Part shown: in pieces, positions 16,124 through 22,845 of the stretch
How positions within the stretch are numbered: position 1 is the first letter of the stretch
Layout of the letters: each line of letters opens with the position of its first letter
Assembly (NCBI RefSeq): GCF_043950205.1
Contig: NZ_CP171642.1
Coordinates: forward strand, 7,356,294 to 7,380,293
Reading direction: 5' to 3'
Origin: Kitasatospora hibisci
GTDB lineage: Bacteria > Actinomycetota > Actinomycetes > Streptomycetales > Streptomycetaceae
DNA: 24,000 nucleotides
Notes under the pieces: model-generated
What the model was told of the DNA's origin: nothing
The model's database searches: none
Seen by the model: only the letters and a program-made list of their open reading frames with translations
Program-made: the position numbers and the translations under genes

Positions 16124-17485
16124 TCAGGGGCAGTGGACGAGGGCGGGGTGGTCCTTGGTGCGGACGGCGGGGAGCCAGGCGGTGGTGGGGCCGGGGAGGT
16201 GGACGCGGTACCAGAGGGTGGAGGAGCGGTCCTCTTCGTCGATGACGGGGAGGCCGGTGGGGAGTTGGCAGTCGGCGTCGAGGAGGTCGTCGTGCCAGAC
16301 GCGGGTGGGAACGACGTTCTCGGCGGTGTAGGGGCGAAGGGGGTCGACGGCGAGGCCGAGGCTGCACCGGGGGTCGCGGTCGGCGCGGTCCTGGCAGCTG
16401 CGTTCGGCGTTGAAGACCCTGATGCGGGTGGGGTGTTCGGCCGGGCCGGAGTGCGGCCGCAACACGGCGACGGCGACCGCGGCCGCGGCGCAGGCGGCGA
16501 GGGCGAGCACGACGGTGCGCGGTCGGGGGTGACGGGTGCGGCGGCCGGACCGGTGGGCGCGGATCCGGGCGAGCAGGCTCTCGGCGGTGTACGGGGCGCG
16601 GGCGGCGTGGGTGGGGGCGAGGCAGTCGGCGGCGAGGGCGCGCCAGAACGGGGGGACCTCGGGGGCCAGTCGCAGCGCGGCGCGGCCCTGGGCGTACTGC
16701 TGGGCGGCGGCGCTGCGGGCGGTGGGGGTGGCGCCGGGGAAGGGCGGGACACCGGCGGCGAACACCTCGTGGATCACGATGCCGAGCGCCCAGATGTCGG
16801 CGGTGGGACGGATCTTGACGCCGTGTTCGCCGAGCGGCTCCCTCCAGCGCTCCGGCGGGAGGTAGTCGGGGGTGCCCATGGGGGCGGAGTGGCCGTGGGT
16901 GCCGGTGAGTTCGATGGCGAGGCCGAAGTCGGAGAGGCGGACCTCGCCGTCCTCGGCGATGAGGACGTTCTCTGGCTTGAGGTCGGTGTGGACCCAGCCG
17001 GAGCGGTGCAGGTGGGCCAGGCCCTCGCAGATGCCGGCGATGATCCGGGCGCCCCGGTCCTCGTCGACGCCGGTGGCGAGCAGGTCGCGCAGCGTGCCCC
17101 GGGCCCGTTCCATCACCAGGACGGTCGCGCCGTCGAGCGCGGGGTGGCCGGGGGAGTCCAGGGCGAGGGTGTCGAGCAGGCGGACCAGCCGAGGGTGCGG
17201 GGCGGTGCGGGCCAACTCGGCCTCGCGGCGCGCGGCGTCGGCGACCTGGCGGGCCTGGCGGGGGGCGAGTCCGGCGGTCGGCAGCACCTTGAGGGCCACG
17301 GTGTCGTCCACGCCGGCCGTGTTGTCCGAGCCGTCGGCACGAGTGGTGTCCTCGGCCCGGCGGGCGGCGTAGACGGTGGCCCATCCCCCTTCGCCGATCG
17401 GCTCGGTGACGATCCAGTCGCCGATCCGGTGGCCGGCGGGCAGCAGTTCCTGTCCGGACCCGCGGAAGGCCGGAACGTGCACCAT
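16124..17485 (-). CDS. Membrane Ser/Thr protein kinase (Hanks type, non-RD) with a Cys-containing extracytoplasmic C-terminal domain
   Basis: Track ORF. Motifs: IGEGGWATVY, VALKVL, HTDLKPENVLI (Thr instead of Arg before the catalytic Asp), SDFGLA, GTPDYLPPE. TM segment VVLALAACAAAAVAVAVL, then ~110 aa with 4 Cys. Confidence 0.85.
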   Translation of the reverse strand: MVHVPAFRGSGQELLPAGHRIGDWIVTEPIGEGGWATVYAARRAEDTTRADGSDNTAGVDDTVALKVLPTAGLAPRQARQVADAARREAELARTAPHPRLVRLLDTLALDSPGHPALDGATVLVMERARGTLRDLLATGVDEDRGARIIAGICEGLAHLHRSGWVHTDLKPENVLIAEDGEVRLSDFGLAIELTGTHGHSAPMGTPDYLPPERWREPLGEHGVKIRPTADIWALGIVIHEVFAAGVPPFPGATPTARSAAAQQYAQGRAALRLAPEVPPFWRALAADCLAPTHAARAPYTAESLLARIRAHRSGRRTRHPRPRTVVLALAACAAAAVAVAVLRPHSGPAEHPTRIRVFNAERSCQDRADRDPRCSLGLAVDPLRPYTAENVVPTRVWHDDLLDADCQLPTGLPVIDEEDRSSTLWYRVHLPGPTTAWLPAVRTKDHPALVHCP

Positions 17486-17492
17486 CGGGCCC

Positions 17493-18260
17493 CTACCCCC
17501 GGGGCCCGGCGGCTTCGGGGCGCGGCAGGAGTGCCAGGTGCTCCTCGCGAACGATGCCGAACTTCAGGGCGAGTCCCACGACGGCCTCGCGCTTGCCGCT
17601 GCGGCGGTCCGCGCGGCCCGCGTCGTCGGGCAGGTCGATGCGGAGCTTCTCGTCGGCGAGGTAGTCGAGGTGCGAACTGACCGCGCGGGCGGTGAGCCGG
17701 GCGCAGACGGGGTGGTCGCGCAGCCGCGCGACCACCTGGGGGGTGGTGGGCACGGCGGCGGGGGAGCGGTCACGCAGCCACGGCTCGCAGAGCGCGACCA
17801 GGACCAGGAAGTAGGTGGCGGTCTCGTCCAGCGAGTACGCCGTCATGGTGCGGCTCTCCCAGGAGCCGCCACCGCGGGCCTGCGGGTCCAGGTAGACGTG
17901 GTCGGGCGCGAACACCTGGAAGGACAGCGGCGTCTCACGCCGTGAGGGCAGCACCACGCGGGAGAACTCGAACGGGATCGGCGCGCCGATGCGCCGTGGC
18001 GGCACCCGCAGGTACTCGCCGGCGCCCTCCGGGTTCTCCACCAGATAGGCGTGGGTGCTGCTGAGGTTGCTCAACTGCCAGTGGTCGTCGGTCGCGTGGA
18101 TCTCGCCGGCGAGGCGGGAGACCGTCTCGTCGCCGAGTCGGAGCTCCACCGGCGTGCCGGCGGAGCCGCGGCCGAAGCGCACCCGCTCCCCCGGACCGAG
18201 CCGCAAGGTCACCGCGTCCTCGCCGTTCCCCTCCGGCAGGTGGACGAGAATCCCGCTCAC
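17493..18260 (-). CDS. FHA-like domain protein (N-terminal FHA-like, C-terminal unknown/possibly helical)
   Basis: Track ORF with a GTG start preceded by GGAGG. FHA-like pattern: VRFGRGS..VSRLAGEI..LSNLSSTHAYLVEN. Its stop is 7 nt before the kinase ATG, so the two are probably coupled. Confidence 0.6.
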   Translation of the reverse strand: MSGILVHLPEGNGEDAVTLRLGPGERVRFGRGSAGTPVELRLGDETVSRLAGEIHATDDHWQLSNLSSTHAYLVENPEGAGEYLRVPPRRIGAPIPFEFSRVVLPSRRETPLSFQVFAPDHVYLDPQARGGGSWESRTMTAYSLDETATYFLVLVALCEPWLRDRSPAAVPTTPQVVARLRDHPVCARLTARAVSSHLDYLADEKLRIDLPDDAGRADRRSGKREAVVGLALKFGIVREEHLALLPRPEAAGPRG

Positions 18261-18477
18261 CGTTCCTCCGTCCCGCGCACCGCTTCCCCGTTCGCCTGCC
18301 GATCGTTGTCGGACGGACGGAACGTTACCTCCTTGGGCATGACAATAAACCGTATGGTGGCGCAGGCCACGCGACGGTGAAGCAGGGGAACGCGCGTGCG
18401 GAGGGTCAGCGCATCGGCGCCCTCGGGTGCGGCAACGGCGCCGGCCGGCCGCCGCCCACGGCGGTACGGCCCGCGAG

Positions 18478-18522
18478 CGGGAGCACGCGTGCTCCCGCTC
18501 CGGCAGCCCGCAGCGGGCTGTG
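18478..18522 (-). terminator. Two adjacent GC-rich hairpins downstream of the lytic gene pair
   Basis: Palindrome GGGAGCACGCGTGCTCCC (about 18479-18496) and CAGCCCGC-a-GCGGGCTG (18504-18520) lie 45-90 nt after the stop at 18568. No T-tract. Confidence 0.4.
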
Positions 18523-18567
18523 CCCGCTGATCGGGGACATCGTCGCCCTCCAGGAGTTCCGGTGCGG

Positions 18568-19574
18568 TCAGGGGACGGCGGGTCCGGCGGTGGTGTTCAG
18601 CCAGGTCCAGTCGGACCAGGTGGAGAATCCGGTCTGCCACTTGTGGTGGACGCCGGCGCTGCTGGTGCCGAAGACCTCGATCCGGCCGTCGGCGTTGGCG
18701 GTGGCGACGGTCTCGGTGCCGGCGCCGCCGAAGGTGTCCCACGGGCCGTAGGGCGCGTTGACGCCGGTCTGCCAGGTGTGCTGCGCGGTGCTGCCGTTGA
18801 TGGCGAACACCTCCACCCGCCCGTCGGGCGAACGCTCACTGGTGAGTTGGGAGTCGGCGGGTCCGCCGGCGGGTTCCCAGTCGGACCAGGTGGTGGGGTT
18901 GGTCTGGTACTTGTGGAAGACGCCTGCGGGTCCGGAGGCGAGGACTTCGAGGCGGCCGTCCTGGTTGTGGTCGACGGTGAGGTCGTGGCCGCCGCCGCCG
19001 AAGGTCTCCCAGGTGGACCAGGCGCCGTTGACGGCGGTCTGCCATTGGTGTTGGAAGGTGGTGGTGTTGAGGGCGAAGACTTCGAGGCGGCCGTCGGGGG
19101 CCTTGCCGAGTGAGATGCGGCTGTCGGCGGGGCCGCCGCCGGCGGGTTCCCAGTCGGACCAGCCGCTGTTGGGTGCGGTCTGGTACTTGTGGAAGATGCC
19201 GGCGGGTCCGGAGGCGAAGACTTCGAGGCGGCCGTCCTGGTTGGAGCCGGCGGCGATGGAGTGGCCGCCGCCGCCGAAGGTCTCCCAGTCGGACCAGGTG
19301 CCGGAGGGCTGGAGCTGGTAGCGGTGCTGGAAGGTGGTGCCGTTGATGGCGAACATCTCCAGGCGGCCGTCGGGGTTCGGGCCGATCGCCAACTCGGCGC
19401 CGCCGGGGCCGCCCAGGGGTTCCCAGTCCGACCAGGCACCGCTCACGGCGGTCTGCCAGGCGTGCGAGACGCCGTCGGCACCGGCTGCGAACACCTCCAG
19501 CCGGCCGTCCGCCGAACGCGCCGACACCACCTTCCCGGACTGCGCCGGATACACCAACGGCGCCGGTCCGGGCT
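18568..19574 (-). repeat. Copy 1 of a ~1.0 kb direct repeat (propeller-coding module); internally 7 blade repeats with a ~276-bp two-blade periodicity
   Basis: Aligns with 20049..21055 at a constant offset of 1481 bp. Several track ORFs in other frames recur with the same offset, for example 19110..19346 vs 20591..20827 and 19189.. vs 20670... Confidence 0.9.
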
Positions 19575-20037
19575 CGTGGTGGCCGTGCCGGTCCGCGGCG
19601 GCGCGCGCCGCGTCCAGGTACCGCAGGTGGGCACCCGCGTTGTAGGTCGACCAGGGCTGCCAGTTGGTGCCGCCGTTGGAGATGCGGAAGGTCTCGTCGG
19701 CGTTGCACTGGGCGTCGTAGGCGCAGGCGTCGGTGACCTCGGGATGCCAGTAGTCGTTGATCTCCCACAGGCCGCGGTCGGTGGACGGCGGGGTGTTGTT
19801 CTGGACGTTGGACGCCAGCGGGTTGCAGCTGGACTCGGCCATGCCGACGGCGATCGCGGTCACCAGGGCGTCGCCCCGGAACCCCGCGTTGTAGCCGACC
19901 TCGGCGCACAGGTCGATGCCGGTGGCGGCCGGTGCGGGCGTGGCGCCGACCACCAGGCCCGCCGCCACGCCCAGTGCGGCGCATGCGGACAGCAGGACCC
20001 GGTGGGACGCCCGGCGGGCAGGTTGTGTGCTGGTCAC
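18568..20037 (-). CDS. Secreted lysozyme/SLT-like glycosidase fused to a 7-bladed Trp-rich (lectin-like) beta-propeller
   Basis: In-frame C-terminal part of track ORF 18568..21300. GTG at 20037 has GAGGAG 7 nt upstream. Signal peptide RRASHRVLLSACAALGVAAGLVVGATPAPA. Catalytic-domain motifs AIAVGMAESSCNP and STDRGLWEINDYWHPE (about nt 19588-19917). Seven ~45-aa repeats DGR[LIV]EVF..H.[WY]Q..WS.WE..GG follow (nt 18571-19566). Confidence 0.85.
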   Translation of the reverse strand: MTSTQPARRASHRVLLSACAALGVAAGLVVGATPAPAATGIDLCAEVGYNAGFRGDALVTAIAVGMAESSCNPLASNVQNNTPPSTDRGLWEINDYWHPEVTDACAYDAQCNADETFRISNGGTNWQPWSTYNAGAHLRYLDAARAAADRHGHHEPGPAPLVYPAQSGKVVSARSADGRLEVFAAGADGVSHAWQTAVSGAWSDWEPLGGPGGAELAIGPNPDGRLEMFAINGTTFQHRYQLQPSGTWSDWETFGGGGHSIAAGSNQDGRLEVFASGPAGIFHKYQTAPNSGWSDWEPAGGGPADSRISLGKAPDGRLEVFALNTTTFQHQWQTAVNGAWSTWETFGGGGHDLTVDHNQDGRLEVLASGPAGVFHKYQTNPTTWSDWEPAGGPADSQLTSERSPDGRVEVFAINGSTAQHTWQTGVNAPYGPWDTFGGAGTETVATANADGRIEVFGTSSAGVHHKWQTGFSTWSDWTWLNTTAGPAVP

Positions 20038-20048
20038 GTGGTCGCTCC

Positions 20049-21055
20049 TCAACTGACGGCGGGTCCGGCGGTGGTGTTCAGCCAGGTCCAGTCGGACCAG
20101 GTGGAGAATCCGGTCTGCCACTTGTGGTGGACGCCGGCGCTGCTGGTGCCGAAGACCTCGATCCGGCCGTCGGCGTTGGCGGTGGCGATGATCTCGGTGC
20201 CGGCGCCGCCGAAGGTGTCCCACGGGCCGTAGGGGGCGTTCAGGTTGGTCTGCCAGGTGTGCTGCGCGGTGCTGCCGTTGATGGCGAACACCTCCACGCG
20301 GCCGTCCGCGGTGGGCTGGCTGGTGAGTTGGGAGTCGGCGGGTCCGCCGGCGGGTTCCCAGTCGGACCAGGTGGTGGGGTTGGTCTGGTACTTGTGGAAG
20401 ACGCCTGCGGGTCCGGAGGCGAGGACTTCGAGGCGGCCGTCCTGGTTGTGGTCGACGGTGAGGTCGTGGCCGCCGCCGCCGAAGGTCTCCCAGGTGGACC
20501 AGGCGCCGTTGACGGCGGTCTGCCATTGGTGTTGGAAGGTGGTGGTGTTGAGGGCGAAGACTTCGAGGCGGCCGTCGGGGGCCTTGCCGAGTGAGATGCG
20601 GCTGTCGGCGGGGCCGCCGCCGGCGGGTTCCCAGTCGGACCAGCCGCTGTTGGGTGCGGTCTGGTACTTGTGGAAGATGCCGGCGGGTCCGGAGGCGAAG
20701 ACTTCGAGGCGGCCGTCCTGGTTGGAGCCGGCGGCGATGGAGTGGCCGCCGCCGCCGAAGGTCTCCCAGTCGGACCAGGTGCCGGAGGGCTGGAGCTGGT
20801 AGCGGTGCTGGAAGGTGGTGCCGTTGATGGCGAACATCTCCAGGCGGCCGTCGGGGTTCGGGCCGATCGCCAACTCGGCGCCGCCGGGGCCGCCCAGGGG
20901 TTCCCAGTCCGACCAGGCACCGCTCACGGCGGTCTGCCAGGCGTGCGAGACGCCGTCGGCACCGGCCGCGAACACCTCCAGCCGGCCGTCCGCCGAACGC
21001 GCCGACACCACCTTCCCGGACTGCGCCGGATACACCAACGGGGCGGGGCGCGGAC
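20049..21055 (-). repeat. Copy 2 of the ~1.0 kb direct repeat (propeller-coding module)
   Basis: See copy 1. Similarity ends at about 21052-21055, just upstream of the shared PAPLVYPAQSGK linker. Confidence 0.9.
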
Positions 21056-21581
21056 CGGTTCCCGGGGTGCAGGGCATGGTGATCCCGCGCTCCGCCAGGT
21101 AGGGGATCGGGTCGGTACGCACGGTCGCGTCCGGGTCGGCCCAGACCCGCAGGTGCAGGTGCGGCCCGCTGGAGGTGCCCTCGCTGCCCATCTGCGCGAT
21201 CGGCTGACCGGCCGTCACGTGGTCGCCGGTGGCGACGTCCCGCTCGCGCATGTGCCCGTACTCGGTGATGGTCCCGTCCGGGTGCAGGATGCGGATCCAC
21301 TGGCCGTAGCCCTGCGCCGCGCCGGAGACCAGTACCCGGCCGTCGCCGACCGCGTAGATCGGGGTGCCGTAGTCGTTGGCGATGTCGATGCCGTTGTGCT
21401 CCGGGGTGTAGCCCTGGGAGATGTAGCCGGCCGCCGGGCAGGACGCCGCGAATCCGTCGGCCGCTGCAGGGGTGGCCGAGGCGGGGGCGGCCGGCAGGGT
21501 GACCGGCAGCAGCAGGGTGACCGCGGCCATGGCCAGGCGCGCGGCCCGGCGGGAGGTGCGACGGGTGAAGGAGGGGAACAC
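20049..21581 (-). CDS. Secreted M23 (LytM/lysostaphin-type) metallo-endopeptidase fused to the same 7-bladed propeller
   Basis: In-frame C-terminal part of track ORF 20049..22328. GTG at 21581 is preceded by GAGGGG; ATG 21530 is a less likely alternative because it lacks a charged n-region. Signal peptide TRRTSRRAARLAMAAVTLLLPVTLPAAPASA. M23 motifs HNGIDIA, PIYAVGDGRV, TEYGHM and GPHLHLRV (about nt 21096-21428). The 332-aa propeller occupies nt 20052-21047. Confidence 0.85.
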   Translation of the reverse strand: MFPSFTRRTSRRAARLAMAAVTLLLPVTLPAAPASATPAAADGFAASCPAAGYISQGYTPEHNGIDIANDYGTPIYAVGDGRVLVSGAAQGYGQWIRILHPDGTITEYGHMRERDVATGDHVTAGQPIAQMGSEGTSSGPHLHLRVWADPDATVRTDPIPYLAERGITMPCTPGTGPRPAPLVYPAQSGKVVSARSADGRLEVFAAGADGVSHAWQTAVSGAWSDWEPLGGPGGAELAIGPNPDGRLEMFAINGTTFQHRYQLQPSGTWSDWETFGGGGHSIAAGSNQDGRLEVFASGPAGIFHKYQTAPNSGWSDWEPAGGGPADSRISLGKAPDGRLEVFALNTTTFQHQWQTAVNGAWSTWETFGGGGHDLTVDHNQDGRLEVLASGPAGVFHKYQTNPTTWSDWEPAGGPADSQLTSQPTADGRVEVFAINGSTAQHTWQTNLNAPYGPWDTFGGAGTEIIATANADGRIEVFGTSSAGVHHKWQTGFSTWSDWTWLNTTAGPAVS

Positions 21582-22018
21582 CGGGCCGCCCCTCACGCCT
21601 TGCACGGACGGCCGACGGTGCCGCCGGGCGCCGACGGGCCCGCGGCGCCCGGTTCCGGTGCGGCGACGAACCCGCCGGGGGAGTTCGGGACGCTGCTGCG
21701 GGTGGGGTGGTGCGCGGTCAACGTGACCTCCTGCGGGCGTGACGGCCACCTGTCCGGACCGCCGGGGAGTGGGGCGGTTGGGACGGTAGCCACGCACCGC
21801 ACGGCACAGAACCCGGAACCATCCGGACTGACAGGGGCTCACCGGCCGAGGAGACTGTCGTCCTCCGGACGGGGCTGTGCAGGGCACGCCGGACGGCGGC
21901 GGGAATGCGTGGTCGGCACATGCGTGGTCAGCAGGAGTCGACGGACCGGCCCCGCCCCGGCAGAGGCGGGCCTGAACGGCCGGGGACCCGTAGGGCGGGG
22001 TCAGCCGCCCGCCGGGGG

Positions 22019-22438
22019 TCAGCGCCGTGCGGCGGCCTTGTCCAGGTCGGCGGTGAACCTTGCGAACTCCTTCCGCCAAGCGAGGCGAACGTTCATCCGG
22101 GTGGGTTCGTCGTGCCCGGGGAGGGCGAACGGGAAGGAGCTCCAGAGCAGTCGGCGGCGGACCGTGCCCATCCGGCGGGCCGTTTCGTCCCGGTCGAAGC
22201 TGTAGACGAGGTCGCCCGGCCGCTGCCCTATGCCCCTGGTCTTGACCTGGTGGAAGTGGACGGACCGCGCGGTCGCGGTGACGAAGTAGGTGTCGGCGTC
22301 GAGGCCGCCGCCGAGGCAGGAGAGCCATGGGCTGTCGTCGAGGAACACGCCGAAGACGGTGAGCGGGGGATCGGTCGGATCCATCTCAAGCACCGTCTGC
22401 TCGACCTGCTTGATCGTGGCGTCCTTGCGCACTGCCAT
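22019..22438 (-). CDS. Small cytoplasmic protein of unknown function (139 aa)
   Basis: In-frame part of track ORF 22019..22720. ATG at 22438 has GGGAGG 8 nt upstream. The composition is protein-like (MAVRKDATIKQVEQTVLEMDP..), unlike the Pro/Arg/Gly-rich upstream extension. No signal peptide and no motif I can name. Confidence 0.5.
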   Translation of the reverse strand: MAVRKDATIKQVEQTVLEMDPTDPPLTVFGVFLDDSPWLSCLGGGLDADTYFVTATARSVHFHQVKTRGIGQRPGDLVYSFDRDETARRMGTVRRRLLWSSFPFALPGHDEPTRMNVRLAWRKEFARFTADLDKAAARR

Positions 22439-22845
22439 CCGTCCGTCCTCCCGTCCCGGTCGGCCCGGCGTCGGGGCCGGCCCTGTCCGTGACCGATCGG
22501 GCGCCGACTGCCGCCCGGGGTGGCCGGGCGCATCCCGTGCCCCGGCCGTGGCCCAACGTAGGGGCTGCGGGGGGCGGAGTGGATGACGGTCGGCACCGAA
22601 AGACTTGGGAGGTCCGGGACCTCTCGGTCCCGAGGGGTCGGTCCGGTGACCGGTGGCGGAGGGCGCCGGGGAGAGCCTGCGGGCGGTCCCGGTGCGCGTC
22701 GGCCCGTCGGCCCGCGTCACCGACGCGTGGCGGGGAACCGTGAGGCTGCGCCGGACGGAGGTGACGCAGGGCGGCGGCCGGGGCCGAGCCGTCGGCGGCC
22801 GAGCGGATTCACGAGTGGCCGCACGGGTGAACGGTCGTCAGATGC

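What the first reader, a model, noticed from the sequence alone, without database searches (positions are those of the whole stretch)
18568..21055. ~1 kb direct repeat (period 1481 bp) with mosaic identity: a near-perfect 733-bp tract next to a diverged 3' end, as expected from gene conversion
Seen: with an offset of exactly 1481 bp, 18839-19571 and 20320-21052 look identical by eye. The one exception is a synonymous T/C (19486 vs 20967, Ala codon). This is corroborated by identical translations of track ORFs in three different frames, for example 18758..19321 vs 20245..20802, and 18597..19439 vs 20240..20920. In contrast, the 3'-terminal ~270 bp of the two genes (18571-18838 vs 20052-20319) carry about 20 substitutions, both synonymous and nonsynonymous. 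The amino-acid differences are SERSPDGR/SQPTADGR, TGVNAPYG/TNLNAPYG, TETVATANA/TEIIATANA and AVP/AVS, all in blades 6-7. Similarity stops abruptly at the linker (about 19572/21053), where the unrelated catalytic domains begin. Inference: either a recent duplication with domain swapping, or ongoing gene conversion that homogenises blades 1-5 and spares blades 6-7. The repeat is a substrate for RecA-mediated deletion of 1481 bp, which would leave a single M23-propeller gene without the lysozyme-like domain. It is equally a substrate for amplification. It is also a place where short-read assemblies can collapse or create chimeras.
Basis: seen in the sequence. Interest (0 to 1): 0.7.

Follow-up and report, generated by a model that had tools for sequence, protein, structure and literature searches.

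The report
Two wall-lysis genes sharing one lectin domain
Two neighbouring genes for secreted cell-wall-cutting enzymes carry nearly the same sugar-binding propeller domain because recombination keeps copying one copy onto the other; this is a clean but ordinary case of concerted evolution, with one tiny stretch that stays gene-specific.

Summary
The repeat is real. At an offset of 1481 bp, 18568-19572 matches 20049-21053. A 722-bp tract (18839-19560) has one synonymous mismatch. Then comes a 131-bp island with 17 differences (18708-18838), then 134 identical bases, then a different last codon.

The repeat encodes the C-terminal seven-bladed PLL-type lectin propeller of two adjacent minus-strand genes: M23 endopeptidase-propeller (21581..20049) and SLT_3 lysozyme-like-propeller (20037..18568). 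They lie 11 nt apart.

The pair is old. I found the same pair, in the same order, in 38 other Kitasatospora and Streptomyces species. Yet 68 of 78 propellers are closest to their partner in the same genome, and third-codon-position identity is 0.87 within genomes against 0.63 between species. There is no orthology signal except in the island. There, four codons are gene-specific across genera: E-R-S-P in the SLT gene and Q-[P/R]-T-A in the M23 gene.

This is recurrent gene conversion, not a recent duplication. Single M23-propeller loci that differ by exactly one repeat unit exist, and 11 of 80 related assemblies have gaps inside the repeat. It is a new member of a known kind and of moderate interest.

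The parts
20049..21581 (-). Gene B: secreted M23 metalloendopeptidase with a C-terminal PLL-type propeller (510 aa, GTG start at 21581). The Peptidase_M23 domain lies at about 21135-21401.
   Evidence: Pfam PF01551, E = 4.6e-30, above the curated cutoff. GC3 is 0.94. The start agrees with the annotated ortholog P0001. AF2 gives pLDDT 89.6. The M23 domain is 52% identical to StM23, PDB 9gy1.
18568..20037 (-). Gene A: secreted SLT_3 lysozyme-like enzyme with a C-terminal PLL-type propeller (489 aa, GTG start at 20037). The SLT_3 domain lies at about 19645-19902.
   Evidence: Pfam PF18896, E = 5e-34. GC3 is 0.93, and a GAGGAG Shine-Dalgarno sequence overlaps the TGA stop of gene B.
20038..20048 (-). 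The 11-nt intergenic gap, which implies co-transcription and translational coupling of the two genes.
   Evidence: Read directly from the sequence. The same 11-nt gap occurs in the complete genome L081.
20049..21053 (-). Repeat copy B: linker end, seven propeller blades and the stop codon of gene B.
   Evidence: The propeller matches PHL/PLL lectins by sequence at E = 6e-55 and by fold at TM 0.80-0.86.
18568..19572 (-). Repeat copy A: linker end, seven propeller blades and the stop codon of gene A.
18839..19560 (-). Recently homogenised tract in copy A (partner 20320-21041): 722 bp with one synonymous mismatch at 19486.
   Evidence: In this segment the nearest relative of each window copy is the other window copy (0.999, against at most 0.923 for any other species).
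18708..18838 (-). Unconverted island in copy A (partner 20189-20319): 17 differences in 131 bp.
   Evidence: In propeller nt 721-870 each window copy is closest to the same gene in another species: B to L011_PB at 0.953 and A to L008_PA at 0.920, against 0.887 for A vs B.
18826..18837 (-). Gene-specific four-codon patch, E-R-S-P in gene A (partner 20307-20318, Q-P-T-A in gene B). It corresponds to propeller residues 244-247.
   Evidence: The patch is gene-specific across 39 species: residue 246 is S 28/39 vs T 34/39, and residue 247 is P 32/39 vs A 31/39. In the AF2 model it lies at the end of strand 418-423 plus the turn before the DGR strand.
18574..18707 (-). Homogenised tail in copy A (partner 20055-20188): 134 bp, 100% identical. 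It is followed by a different last codon (18571-18573, CCC, vs 20052-20054, AGT).
18455..18530 (-). Two GC-rich hairpins about 40-110 nt downstream of the stop of gene A. They are probably the terminator of the two-gene unit.
   Evidence: Folding gives -50.5 kcal/mol, z = -3.46. The simple T-run terminator scan found nothing.

Best explanation
The repeat is the coding DNA of one domain present twice. That domain is a 332-residue, seven-bladed PLL-type beta-propeller lectin, which forms the C-terminus of two adjacent, co-oriented and probably co-transcribed genes for secreted peptidoglycan hydrolases: an M23 endopeptidase and an SLT_3 lysozyme-like enzyme.

The gene pair predates the split of the Kitasatospora and Streptomyces species sampled. 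Despite that age, the two propellers do not diverge, because homologous recombination between the two direct repeats 1.48 kb apart repeatedly copies stretches of one onto the other. This could be non-reciprocal gene conversion, possibly with unequal exchange between sister chromosomes.

Conversion is confined to the propeller because homology begins in the linker (P-x-P-L-V-Y-P) and ends at the stop codon. In the window, the latest event or events left 722 bp with a single synonymous difference.

A short island at the start of blade 6 keeps old, gene-specific alleles: E-R-S-P in the SLT gene and Q-[P/R]-T-A in the M23 gene, plus V/L at residue 269. The most likely reason is that converted alleles at these positions are usually selected against. 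Ten of 39 species have nevertheless been homogenised across the island, in either direction.

Reciprocal recombination between the same repeats would delete one 1481-bp unit and leave a single M23-propeller gene. Loci with that structure exist in related species.

Shown here: the anatomy, the age of the pair, concerted evolution, the segment-wise phylogenetic discordance and the gene-specific patch. Inferred: the recombination pathway, selection on the island, the lectin function and co-transcription.
For: Anatomy:
- The propeller matches PHL/PLL by sequence at E = 6e-55 and by fold at TM 0.80-0.86.

Age of the pair:
- 38 of 80 species-representative loci have the full pair in the same order, with periods of 1460-1708 bp, nine of them exactly 1481.
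- The complete genome CP107964.1 has the same pair, the same gap and the same mosaic.

Concerted evolution:
- Within-genome propeller identity is 0.82-0.999. It exceeds the best ortholog in other species in nearly all cases.
- 68 of 78 copies have their own paralog as nearest neighbour.
- Third-codon-position identity has a median of 0.867 within genomes and 0.633 between species. Ortholog and cross comparisons are equal at 0.633.
- The orthology signal is about 0 in every 90-nt window except 721-810, where it is +0.021 (51% vs 5% of species pairs).

Mosaic:
- The run test gives P <= 2e-4 for the window and for most of the 12 other species tested (all 12 have P <= 0.013).
- Nearest neighbour by segment: in the 5' segment it is the own paralog in 70 of 78. 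In the island it is the same gene in another species in 42 of 78.
- The gene-specific codons are 244-247 and 269.

Bidirectional full-length conversions:
- L020, L054 and L062 carry the M23-type patch in both genes.
- L036, L060, L063 and L048 carry the SLT-type patch in both genes.

Deletion products:
- In single-gene loci the flank after the stop is collinear with the flank of the SLT gene at offset 0. For L016 this is 93% identity to the window, at 0 relative to the stop of gene A and 1481 relative to the stop of gene B.
- The single state is scattered through the tree. It includes a clade of 8 species containing two complete genomes.
Against: - No conversion event was observed directly. 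The inference is comparative.
- Most related genomes are drafts. Bubble-popping by assemblers could inflate paralog identity, and repeat collapse could mimic deletions. Eleven loci have N runs in the repeat. The complete genomes still show the effect: L048 0.999, L069 0.939, L041 0.904, and L081 with 43 mismatches in 1011 nt.
- Selection on the island is not proven. Ten of 39 species tolerate an identical patch in both genes, and a cluster of 7 mismatches in 12 nt could by itself hinder heteroduplex extension.
- Five species pairs (L032, L037, L060, L066, L070) plus one of the two L071 copies are not each other's nearest neighbour, so conversion is not equally frequent everywhere.
- No sigma-70-like promoter or T-run terminator was found, so the operon structure rests on spacing and hairpins only.
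Confidence: 0.85

Rival explanations
1. The propeller module was duplicated recently in this lineage, or the SLT gene recently acquired it by domain swap. On this view the identical tract simply has not had time to diverge.
For: Within the window alone, 722 bp with one difference next to unrelated catalytic domains looks like a fresh duplication.
Against: - The same two-gene architecture, order and spacing occur in 38 other species and two genera.
- The SLT and M23 domains are orthologous, at 64-96% aa identity to the window.
- The island retains old gene-specific alleles shared with other species. A fresh duplication could not produce that.
Confidence: 0.03
2. The near-identity, or even the tandem arrangement, is an assembly artefact. 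A short-read assembler could have collapsed or consensus-merged two diverged copies, or created a chimera.
For: - The locus does break assemblies: 11 of 80 related records have 93-100-N runs inside the repeat.
- Apparent 'short propellers' in L006, L007 and L009 are gap artefacts.
- A 647-bp exact repeat exceeds short-read length.
Against: - The tandem pair and the same mosaic occur in the complete genome CP107964.1 and in other complete genomes: L048, L069 and L041.
- The window retains 20 resolved differences and one isolated SNP (19486) between the copies, and no N runs.
- Read-level data are not available here, so a few lost isolated SNPs in the 722-bp tract cannot be excluded.
Confidence: 0.06
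3. Gene conversion occurs, but the island is neutral. Its dense mismatches (7 in 12 nt) simply block heteroduplex extension or trigger rejection. Tracts therefore end there and the divergence perpetuates itself without selection.
For: - Divergence peaks sharply at nt 721-750 (0.203, against about 0.05 background).
- Ten of 39 species carry the same patch in both genes with no obvious loss of either gene.
Against: - The 134-bp tail beyond the island is homogenised. That is hard to achieve if the island blocks tracts, because no homology exists beyond the stop codon.
- The same amino acids, not just any divergent sequence, are kept in each gene across two genera (S/T at 246 and P/A at 247, specificity 0.42-0.51).
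Confidence: 0.25
4. Strong purifying selection or codon bias alone keeps the two propellers similar, with no recombination.
For: The domain is conserved, and GC3 is 0.93-0.94, which limits synonymous choices.
Against: - Selection and codon bias act equally on orthologs, yet third-position identity is 0.867 within genomes against 0.633 between species.
- Orthologs are no closer than cross-comparisons.
Confidence: 0.01

Closest known systems
Concerted evolution of bacterial paralogs by gene conversion. Examples from my own knowledge: tufA/tufB in Salmonella, and the Helicobacter pylori bab and hom outer-membrane protein paralogs. bab intragenomic recombination is described in PMC3444412 and PMC4552749, and hom in PMC2795765; these appeared in the listing and I did not read them.
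   Same: - Paralogs are more alike within a genome than orthologs are between genomes.
- The genes are mosaics in which one segment is homogenised and another keeps a gene-specific identity.
- The mechanism is homologous recombination between repeats.
   Different: - Here the homogenised unit is one protein domain shared by two otherwise unrelated enzymes, not a whole gene.
- The copies are tandem, 1.48 kb apart, in one transcription unit.
- The unconverted part is only about 130 bp, with a four-codon core.
- There is no link to antigenic or phase variation.
[quoted passage not shown]
   Same: - Sequence similarity at E = 6e-55, 34-37% identity.
- Fold TM-score 0.80-0.86.
- The DGRLEVFA...W.Q...WS.W blade motif.
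- The R/E/H/W/Q residues of the PHL second ('Gal-type') site are largely kept.
   Different: - The domain is fused behind a peptidoglycan hydrolase domain rather than standing alone.
- The first Trp of the two-Trp fucose pocket (PHL W199 position) is S, F, A or H in all seven blades, so fucose specificity is doubtful.
- NCBIfam lectin models score far below their cutoffs, at about 40 bits against 200-350.
- Ligand unknown.
Modular bacteriolytic peptidoglycan hydrolases with a catalytic domain plus a C-terminal cell-wall-targeting domain, such as lysostaphin and StM23 with an added CWT domain (PMC12052989).
   Same: - An M23 catalytic domain 52% identical to StM23 (9gy1), with TM 0.85.
- An N-terminal signal-like segment.
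- A C-terminal non-catalytic binding module.
- Different catalytic modules share one targeting module.
   Different: - The targeting module is a lectin propeller, not SH3b, LysM or CWT.
- The target organism (self or competitor) and the ligand are unknown.
- No activity was tested.

Membership tests
Concerted evolution by gene conversion | The duplication predates speciation: the same paralog pair is found in syntenic position in several species. | tested here: met
   38 other species and the complete genome L081 have M23-propeller followed by SLT_3-propeller.
Concerted evolution by gene conversion | Paralogs within a genome are more similar than orthologs between genomes, including at synonymous sites. 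| tested here: met
   68 of 78 copies have their own paralog as nearest neighbour. Third-position identity is 0.867 within genomes and 0.633 between species.
Concerted evolution by gene conversion | Mosaic structure: significant runs of identity, and segments with discordant phylogeny. | tested here: met
   The run test gives P <= 2e-4. The 5' segment groups by genome in 70 of 78 copies. The island groups by gene in 42 of 78.
Concerted evolution by gene conversion | Direct observation of non-reciprocal transfer and its dependence on the recombination machinery. | not testable with these tools
   This needs experimental evolution or fluctuation assays in recombination mutants.
PLL-family seven-bladed propeller lectin | Sequence homology to PLL/PHL. 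| tested here: met
   phmmer against the PDB gives E = 6.3e-55 to PHL and 8.6e-45 to PLL. Orthologs carry precomputed PF26607. The NCBIfam lectin models score below their cutoffs.
PLL-family seven-bladed propeller lectin | A seven-bladed, four-stranded propeller fold. | tested here: met
   The AF2 model has pLDDT 89.6 and 28 strands in residues 191-489. Foldseek gives TMt 0.80-0.86 and rmsd 2.7-3.1 A to PLL, PHL, PLL2, PLL3 and PLL5.
PLL-family seven-bladed propeller lectin | A two-Trp fucose pocket between blades (PHL T194/W199/W214 positions). | tested here: not met
   By alignment to PHL and the residue list in PMC5584973, the W199-equivalent is S, F, F, F, F, A and H in the seven blades. 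The T194-equivalent is not conserved.
PLL-family seven-bladed propeller lectin | Demonstrated carbohydrate binding. | not testable with these tools
   This needs a glycan array or ITC with the recombinant domain.
Peptidase family M23 | A Pfam match above the gathering score, and the zinc ligands H-x3-D and H-x-H. | tested here: met
   PF01551 scores 104 bits against a cutoff of 28.7. H62, D66, H141 and H143 are invariant in the ortholog alignment.
SLT_3 lysozyme-like domain | A Pfam match above the gathering score. | tested here: met
   PF18896 scores 117 bits against a cutoff of 27 and covers model positions 2-89 of 89. The catalytic residue was not examined.
Two-gene operon | Co-transcription of the two genes. 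| tested here: inconclusive
   There is an 11-nt gap, a Shine-Dalgarno sequence overlapping the upstream stop, conserved adjacency, and hairpins only after gene A. The consensus scan found no promoter or terminator, and there are no RNA data.

The most novel reading that the evidence does not exclude
Homogenisation is not just tolerated but useful. The two enzymes form a lytic cassette that must dock on the same wall glycan. Gene conversion keeps six of the seven inter-blade pockets identical, so that any change in targeting spreads to both enzymes. Meanwhile selection holds one pocket, around the blade-6 patch and the residue-269 loop, different, so that each catalytic domain is positioned or tuned separately. 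The island would then be a mapped specificity determinant of an undescribed actinomycete wall-targeting lectin module.
Probability: 0.15. Interest if true: 0.6.

Novelty: new member of a known kind. Interest (0 to 1): 0.4.

Why it matters
- It is a very clean natural example of domain-limited concerted evolution in bacteria. The boundaries are set by the limits of homology, and a four-codon stretch resists homogenisation across two genera. That points to residues worth testing for function in a lectin module that has not been characterised in actinomycetes.
- There are practical consequences. The locus is a recombination hotspot that can lose the lysozyme-like gene. It breaks or misleads assemblies: 11 of 80 related records have gaps there.
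- It also misleads orthology calls and trees built on the propeller.
- It does not reveal a new kind of system.

Tried and rejected
1. Exact-sequence look-up of gene A in public assemblies found nothing on record. The source genome could not be identified, and no independent assembly of it could be compared.
2. I first read the 'shortened propellers' next to M23 in L006, L007 and L009 as out-of-register deletions in the window's closest relatives. I rejected this because they contain runs of 96-99 N, that is, scaffold gaps or masks. L001, L005, L013, L021, L023, L044, L045 and L055 have the same problem.
3. Consensus scans for sigma-70 promoters and T-run terminators in 18200-22100 found nothing. 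This was expected in a high-GC actinomycete. Hairpins were found by folding instead.
4. Literature searches for PLL-type propellers in Streptomyces and for gene conversion among Streptomyces paralogs returned only general lectin reviews and unrelated papers.
5. NCBIfam lectin models hit far below their cutoffs. I therefore did not file the domain as a CV39L or beta_propeller_lectin equivalog.
6. The structure model gives no coordinates through these tools. I could not measure whether the patch touches the catalytic domain or a sugar pocket. Only its secondary-structure position is known.
7. I looked for amplification (three or more repeat units) in the 81 related loci and found none.
Full report
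**Observation**

A direct comparison of the window with itself at an offset of 1481 bp confirms the repeat. 18568-19572 matches 20049-21053, and outside these limits identity falls to background.

The differences, in copy-A coordinates, are:
- 18571-18573
- 18708 and 18710
- 18754, 18760, 18762, 18764 and 18765
- ten sites in 18817-18838
- 19486
- 19561, 19564, 19567, 19569 and 19570

It also confirms that 19486 is a synonymous Ala change.

Two corrections are needed. First, the near-perfect tract is 18839-19560 (722 bp), not 18839-19571. Second, the 3' part is not evenly diverged. All internal differences lie in 18708-18838, the next 134 bp (18574-18707) are identical, and only the last codon differs (CCC vs AGT).

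The uneven distribution is not chance. Fisher's test of 3 differences in the first 725 nt of the propeller alignment against 17 in the last 268 gives P about 5e-11 (the P = 1.5e-10 printed used 1 vs 19, miscounting two edge sites). In a Sawyer-type permutation of 657 polymorphic alignment columns, the observed run of 422 concordant sites was never reached in 5000 trials.

**What the repeat encodes**

Both copies lie in minus-strand genes with GC3 of 0.93-0.94.
- Gene B (21581..20049, 510 aa) has a Peptidase_M23 domain (E = 4.6e-30).
- Gene A (20037..18568, 489 aa) has an SLT_3 lysozyme-like domain (E = 5e-34).

Each continues, after a short Pro-rich linker, into the same 332-residue domain. 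That domain matches the seven-bladed Photorhabdus lectins PHL, PLL, PLL2, PLL3 and PLL5 by sequence, with E down to 6e-55. An AlphaFold model of gene B (pLDDT 89.6, pTM 0.82, 28 strands in the propeller) matches them by fold. The TM-score is 0.80-0.86 and the rmsd about 3 A.

The M23 domain is 52% identical to StM23 (9gy1). StM23 is a bacteriolytic enzyme active on meso-DAP-type peptidoglycan, and its activity improves when a wall-targeting domain is fused to its C-terminus (PMC12052989).

Only 11 nt separate the two genes. A GAGGAG ribosome-binding site overlaps the stop codon of gene B. Strong GC-rich hairpins (-50.5 kcal/mol, z = -3.46) follow gene A. The two genes are therefore most likely one transcription unit, although this is inferred.

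**Age of the pair**

I scanned one genome per species with an alignment of the M23 catalytic part. This returned 80 loci from Kitasatospora and Streptomyces.

tblastn with the four window domains showed that 38 of them carry the complete pair in the same order. The repeat periods are 1460-1708 bp, and nine are exactly 1481. The complete genome of Kitasatospora sp. NBC_00374 (CP107964.1) has the same pair with the same 11-nt gap, followed there by a third gene with a GH43 domain and a more distant PLL propeller.

A recent duplication or domain swap in the window's lineage is therefore excluded.

**Concerted evolution**

Although the pair is old, the two propellers of one genome are nearly always each other's closest relatives.
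- Within-genome nucleotide identity is 0.82-0.999. The best ortholog in another species reaches 0.81-0.93.
- 68 of 78 sequences have their own paralog as nearest neighbour.
- Third-codon-position identity has a median of 0.867 within genomes and 0.633 between species.
- Between species, M23-linked and SLT-linked propellers are no closer to their own kind than to the other kind, at 0.633 for both.

Purifying selection or codon bias cannot produce this. Repeated homologous copying between the two repeats can.

The effect also holds in complete genomes: L048 0.999, L069 0.939, L041 0.904. In CP107964.1 the copies show 43 mismatches in 1011 nt, with the same clustering as in the window. It is therefore not an assembly artefact.

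**The island**

Across 90-nt windows, the orthology signal is zero everywhere except propeller nt 721-810. I measured it as like-with-like identity minus cross identity between species. In that window it is +0.021, and 51% of species pairs favour orthology against 5% the other way.

Within-genome divergence peaks at nt 721-750 (0.203, against about 0.05 background), with a second peak at 841-870.

Nearest-neighbour counts by segment tell the same story:
- In nt 7-720 the nearest sequence is the own paralog in 70 of 78 cases.
- In nt 721-870 it is the same gene in another species in 42 of 78 cases, and the own paralog in 29.
- In nt 871-993 the own paralog leads again, with 43 cases.

For the window itself, the two copies are 0.999 identical in the 5' segment. 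No other species exceeds 0.923 there. In the island, gene B is closest to L011's M23-linked copy (0.953). Gene A is closest to L008's SLT-linked copy (0.920). A against B is 0.887.

The core of the island is four codons (propeller residues 244-247). They read E-R-S-P in most SLT-linked copies and Q-[P/R]-T-A in most M23-linked copies. Residue 269 (V vs L) adds a weaker signal.

The differences in the window are therefore old alleles that were not overwritten. They are not new mutations.

Ten of the 39 species have the same patch in both genes. The overwriting went in either direction (M23-type in L020, L054, L062; SLT-type in L036, L060, L063, L048). Conversion can therefore cross the island, and both outcomes are viable.

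**Why the island persists**

I favour selection, for two reasons. The same residues are kept in each gene across two genera. Also, the 134-bp tail beyond the island is homogenised, which is hard to reconcile with the island acting as a simple block, because no homology exists past the stop codon.

The neutral alternative remains possible, and I give it about 0.25. Under it, seven mismatches in 12 nt stop heteroduplex extension and the divergence maintains itself.

In the model, the patch sits at the end of strand 418-423 and the turn before the 'DGR' strand 429-434. In PHL, the Arg and Glu of that DGRLE motif, and the loop equivalent to the window's T-[NL/GV]-NAPYGPW, belong to the second, galactose-type site. 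That site lies on the face opposite the termini (PMC5584973; alignment). This hints that the island alters one sugar pocket, but I could not measure distances.

The two-Trp fucose pocket of PHL is not conserved in any blade, so the ligand is unknown.

**Deletion, amplification and assembly**

Many related loci have only an M23-propeller gene. In these, the DNA right after the stop codon is collinear with the DNA right after the stop of the SLT gene in tandem loci, at offset 0. For L016 against the window this is 93% identity over 1206 nt, at 0 relative to the stop of gene A and 1481 relative to the stop of gene B.

These single-gene loci are scattered among tandem-bearing lineages on an M23-domain tree. 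They carry either patch type, as expected from crossovers on either side of the island. One clade of eight species, including two complete genomes, is uniformly single.

The caveat is serious, however. Eleven of the 80 records have runs of 93-100 N inside the repeat. The 'short propellers' I first saw in the window's nearest relatives (L006, L007, L009) are such gaps. Some single-gene loci in draft assemblies may therefore be collapsed repeats.

No locus with three units was found.

**Context**

The rest of the window holds ordinary chromosomal genes:
- an aromatic-acid catabolic cluster with a PaaX-type regulator
- an amidohydrolase
- a penicillin amidase
- an esterase
- a SARP/BTAD regulator
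- a Ser/Thr kinase
- a SpoIIE-type phosphatase

Nothing suggests a mobile element.

**Comparison with known systems, and novelty**

Mechanistically this is concerted evolution by gene conversion, a well-established process in bacteria. From my own knowledge, examples are tufA/tufB and the Helicobacter bab and hom paralogs; papers on these appeared in the listing, which I did not read.

What is particular here:
- The unit is a single domain shared by two otherwise unrelated enzymes in one operon.
- The process is visible across dozens of species.
- A four-codon gene-specific core survives.

I found no paper describing this module or its evolution in actinomycetes.

I rate it a new member of a known kind, with interest 0.4. 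It is solid, tidy and useful for annotation and assembly, but not surprising to a specialist.

Noticed in passing
L001, L005, L006, L007, L009, L013, L021, L023, L044, L045, L055 (e.g. L006 6504-6599): Eleven of 80 related genome records have runs of 93-100 N exactly inside the propeller repeat. Apparent truncated propellers in these loci are gap artefacts, and the SLT gene is probably missing from the scaffolds.
   Followed up: partly
L081 7012-9060; also about 1 kb downstream of the pair in most loci (e.g. L008 9890-10837): A third gene with a more distant PLL propeller (35-40% aa identity) follows the pair in most relatives. In Kitasatospora sp. NBC_00374 it is a GH43 domain plus propeller. 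It is absent from the window: L008 carries about 1.9-2.0 kb of extra DNA after the SLT gene relative to the window.
   Followed up: partly
L004 6001-7230: This is an N-free M23 gene with a five-blade propeller (blades 1, 2, 3, 6, 7) carrying the SLT-type patch, still in frame. It is either an out-of-register recombination between similar blades of the two copies or a misassembly.
   Followed up: no
window 18859-19510 and 20340-20991: Within each propeller, the blades form DNA repeat families of 135-141 nt (65-73% identity) and 270-276 nt (60-64%). They could support out-of-register recombination.
   Followed up: no
window 18455-18530 (-): Two perfect GC-rich hairpins lie downstream of gene A (-50.5 kcal/mol, z = -3.46) with no T-run. 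They are a likely actinomycete-style terminator that the consensus scan misses.
   Followed up: partly
window 18568-21300 (-) and other frames over the repeat: Very long ORFs occur in non-coding frames (e.g. 910 aa). They are by-products of high GC content. Their 'identical translations' only restate the DNA identity and are not independent evidence.
   Followed up: yes
window 17493-18260 (-) and 22019-22531 (-): Two probable genes flanking the pair have high GC3 but no Pfam match. The first lies directly upstream of a Ser/Thr kinase gene (16124-17485) on the same strand.
   Followed up: no
P0031 / P0054 (Actinocorallia longicatena, one contig): A genus outside the Streptomycetaceae carries both genes on one contig, at about 68-71% identity to the window proteins. 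That is as close as many Streptomyces species, which suggests possible horizontal transfer of the pair.
   Followed up: no
L027, L039, L047, L069, L073, L076 (about 2-3.3 kb upstream, opposite strand; 4.3-5.3 kb in L047): A further full-length propeller paralog (61-68% aa identity) sits upstream on the opposite strand in several Streptomyces loci. It is a possible extra donor or recipient for conversion.
   Followed up: no
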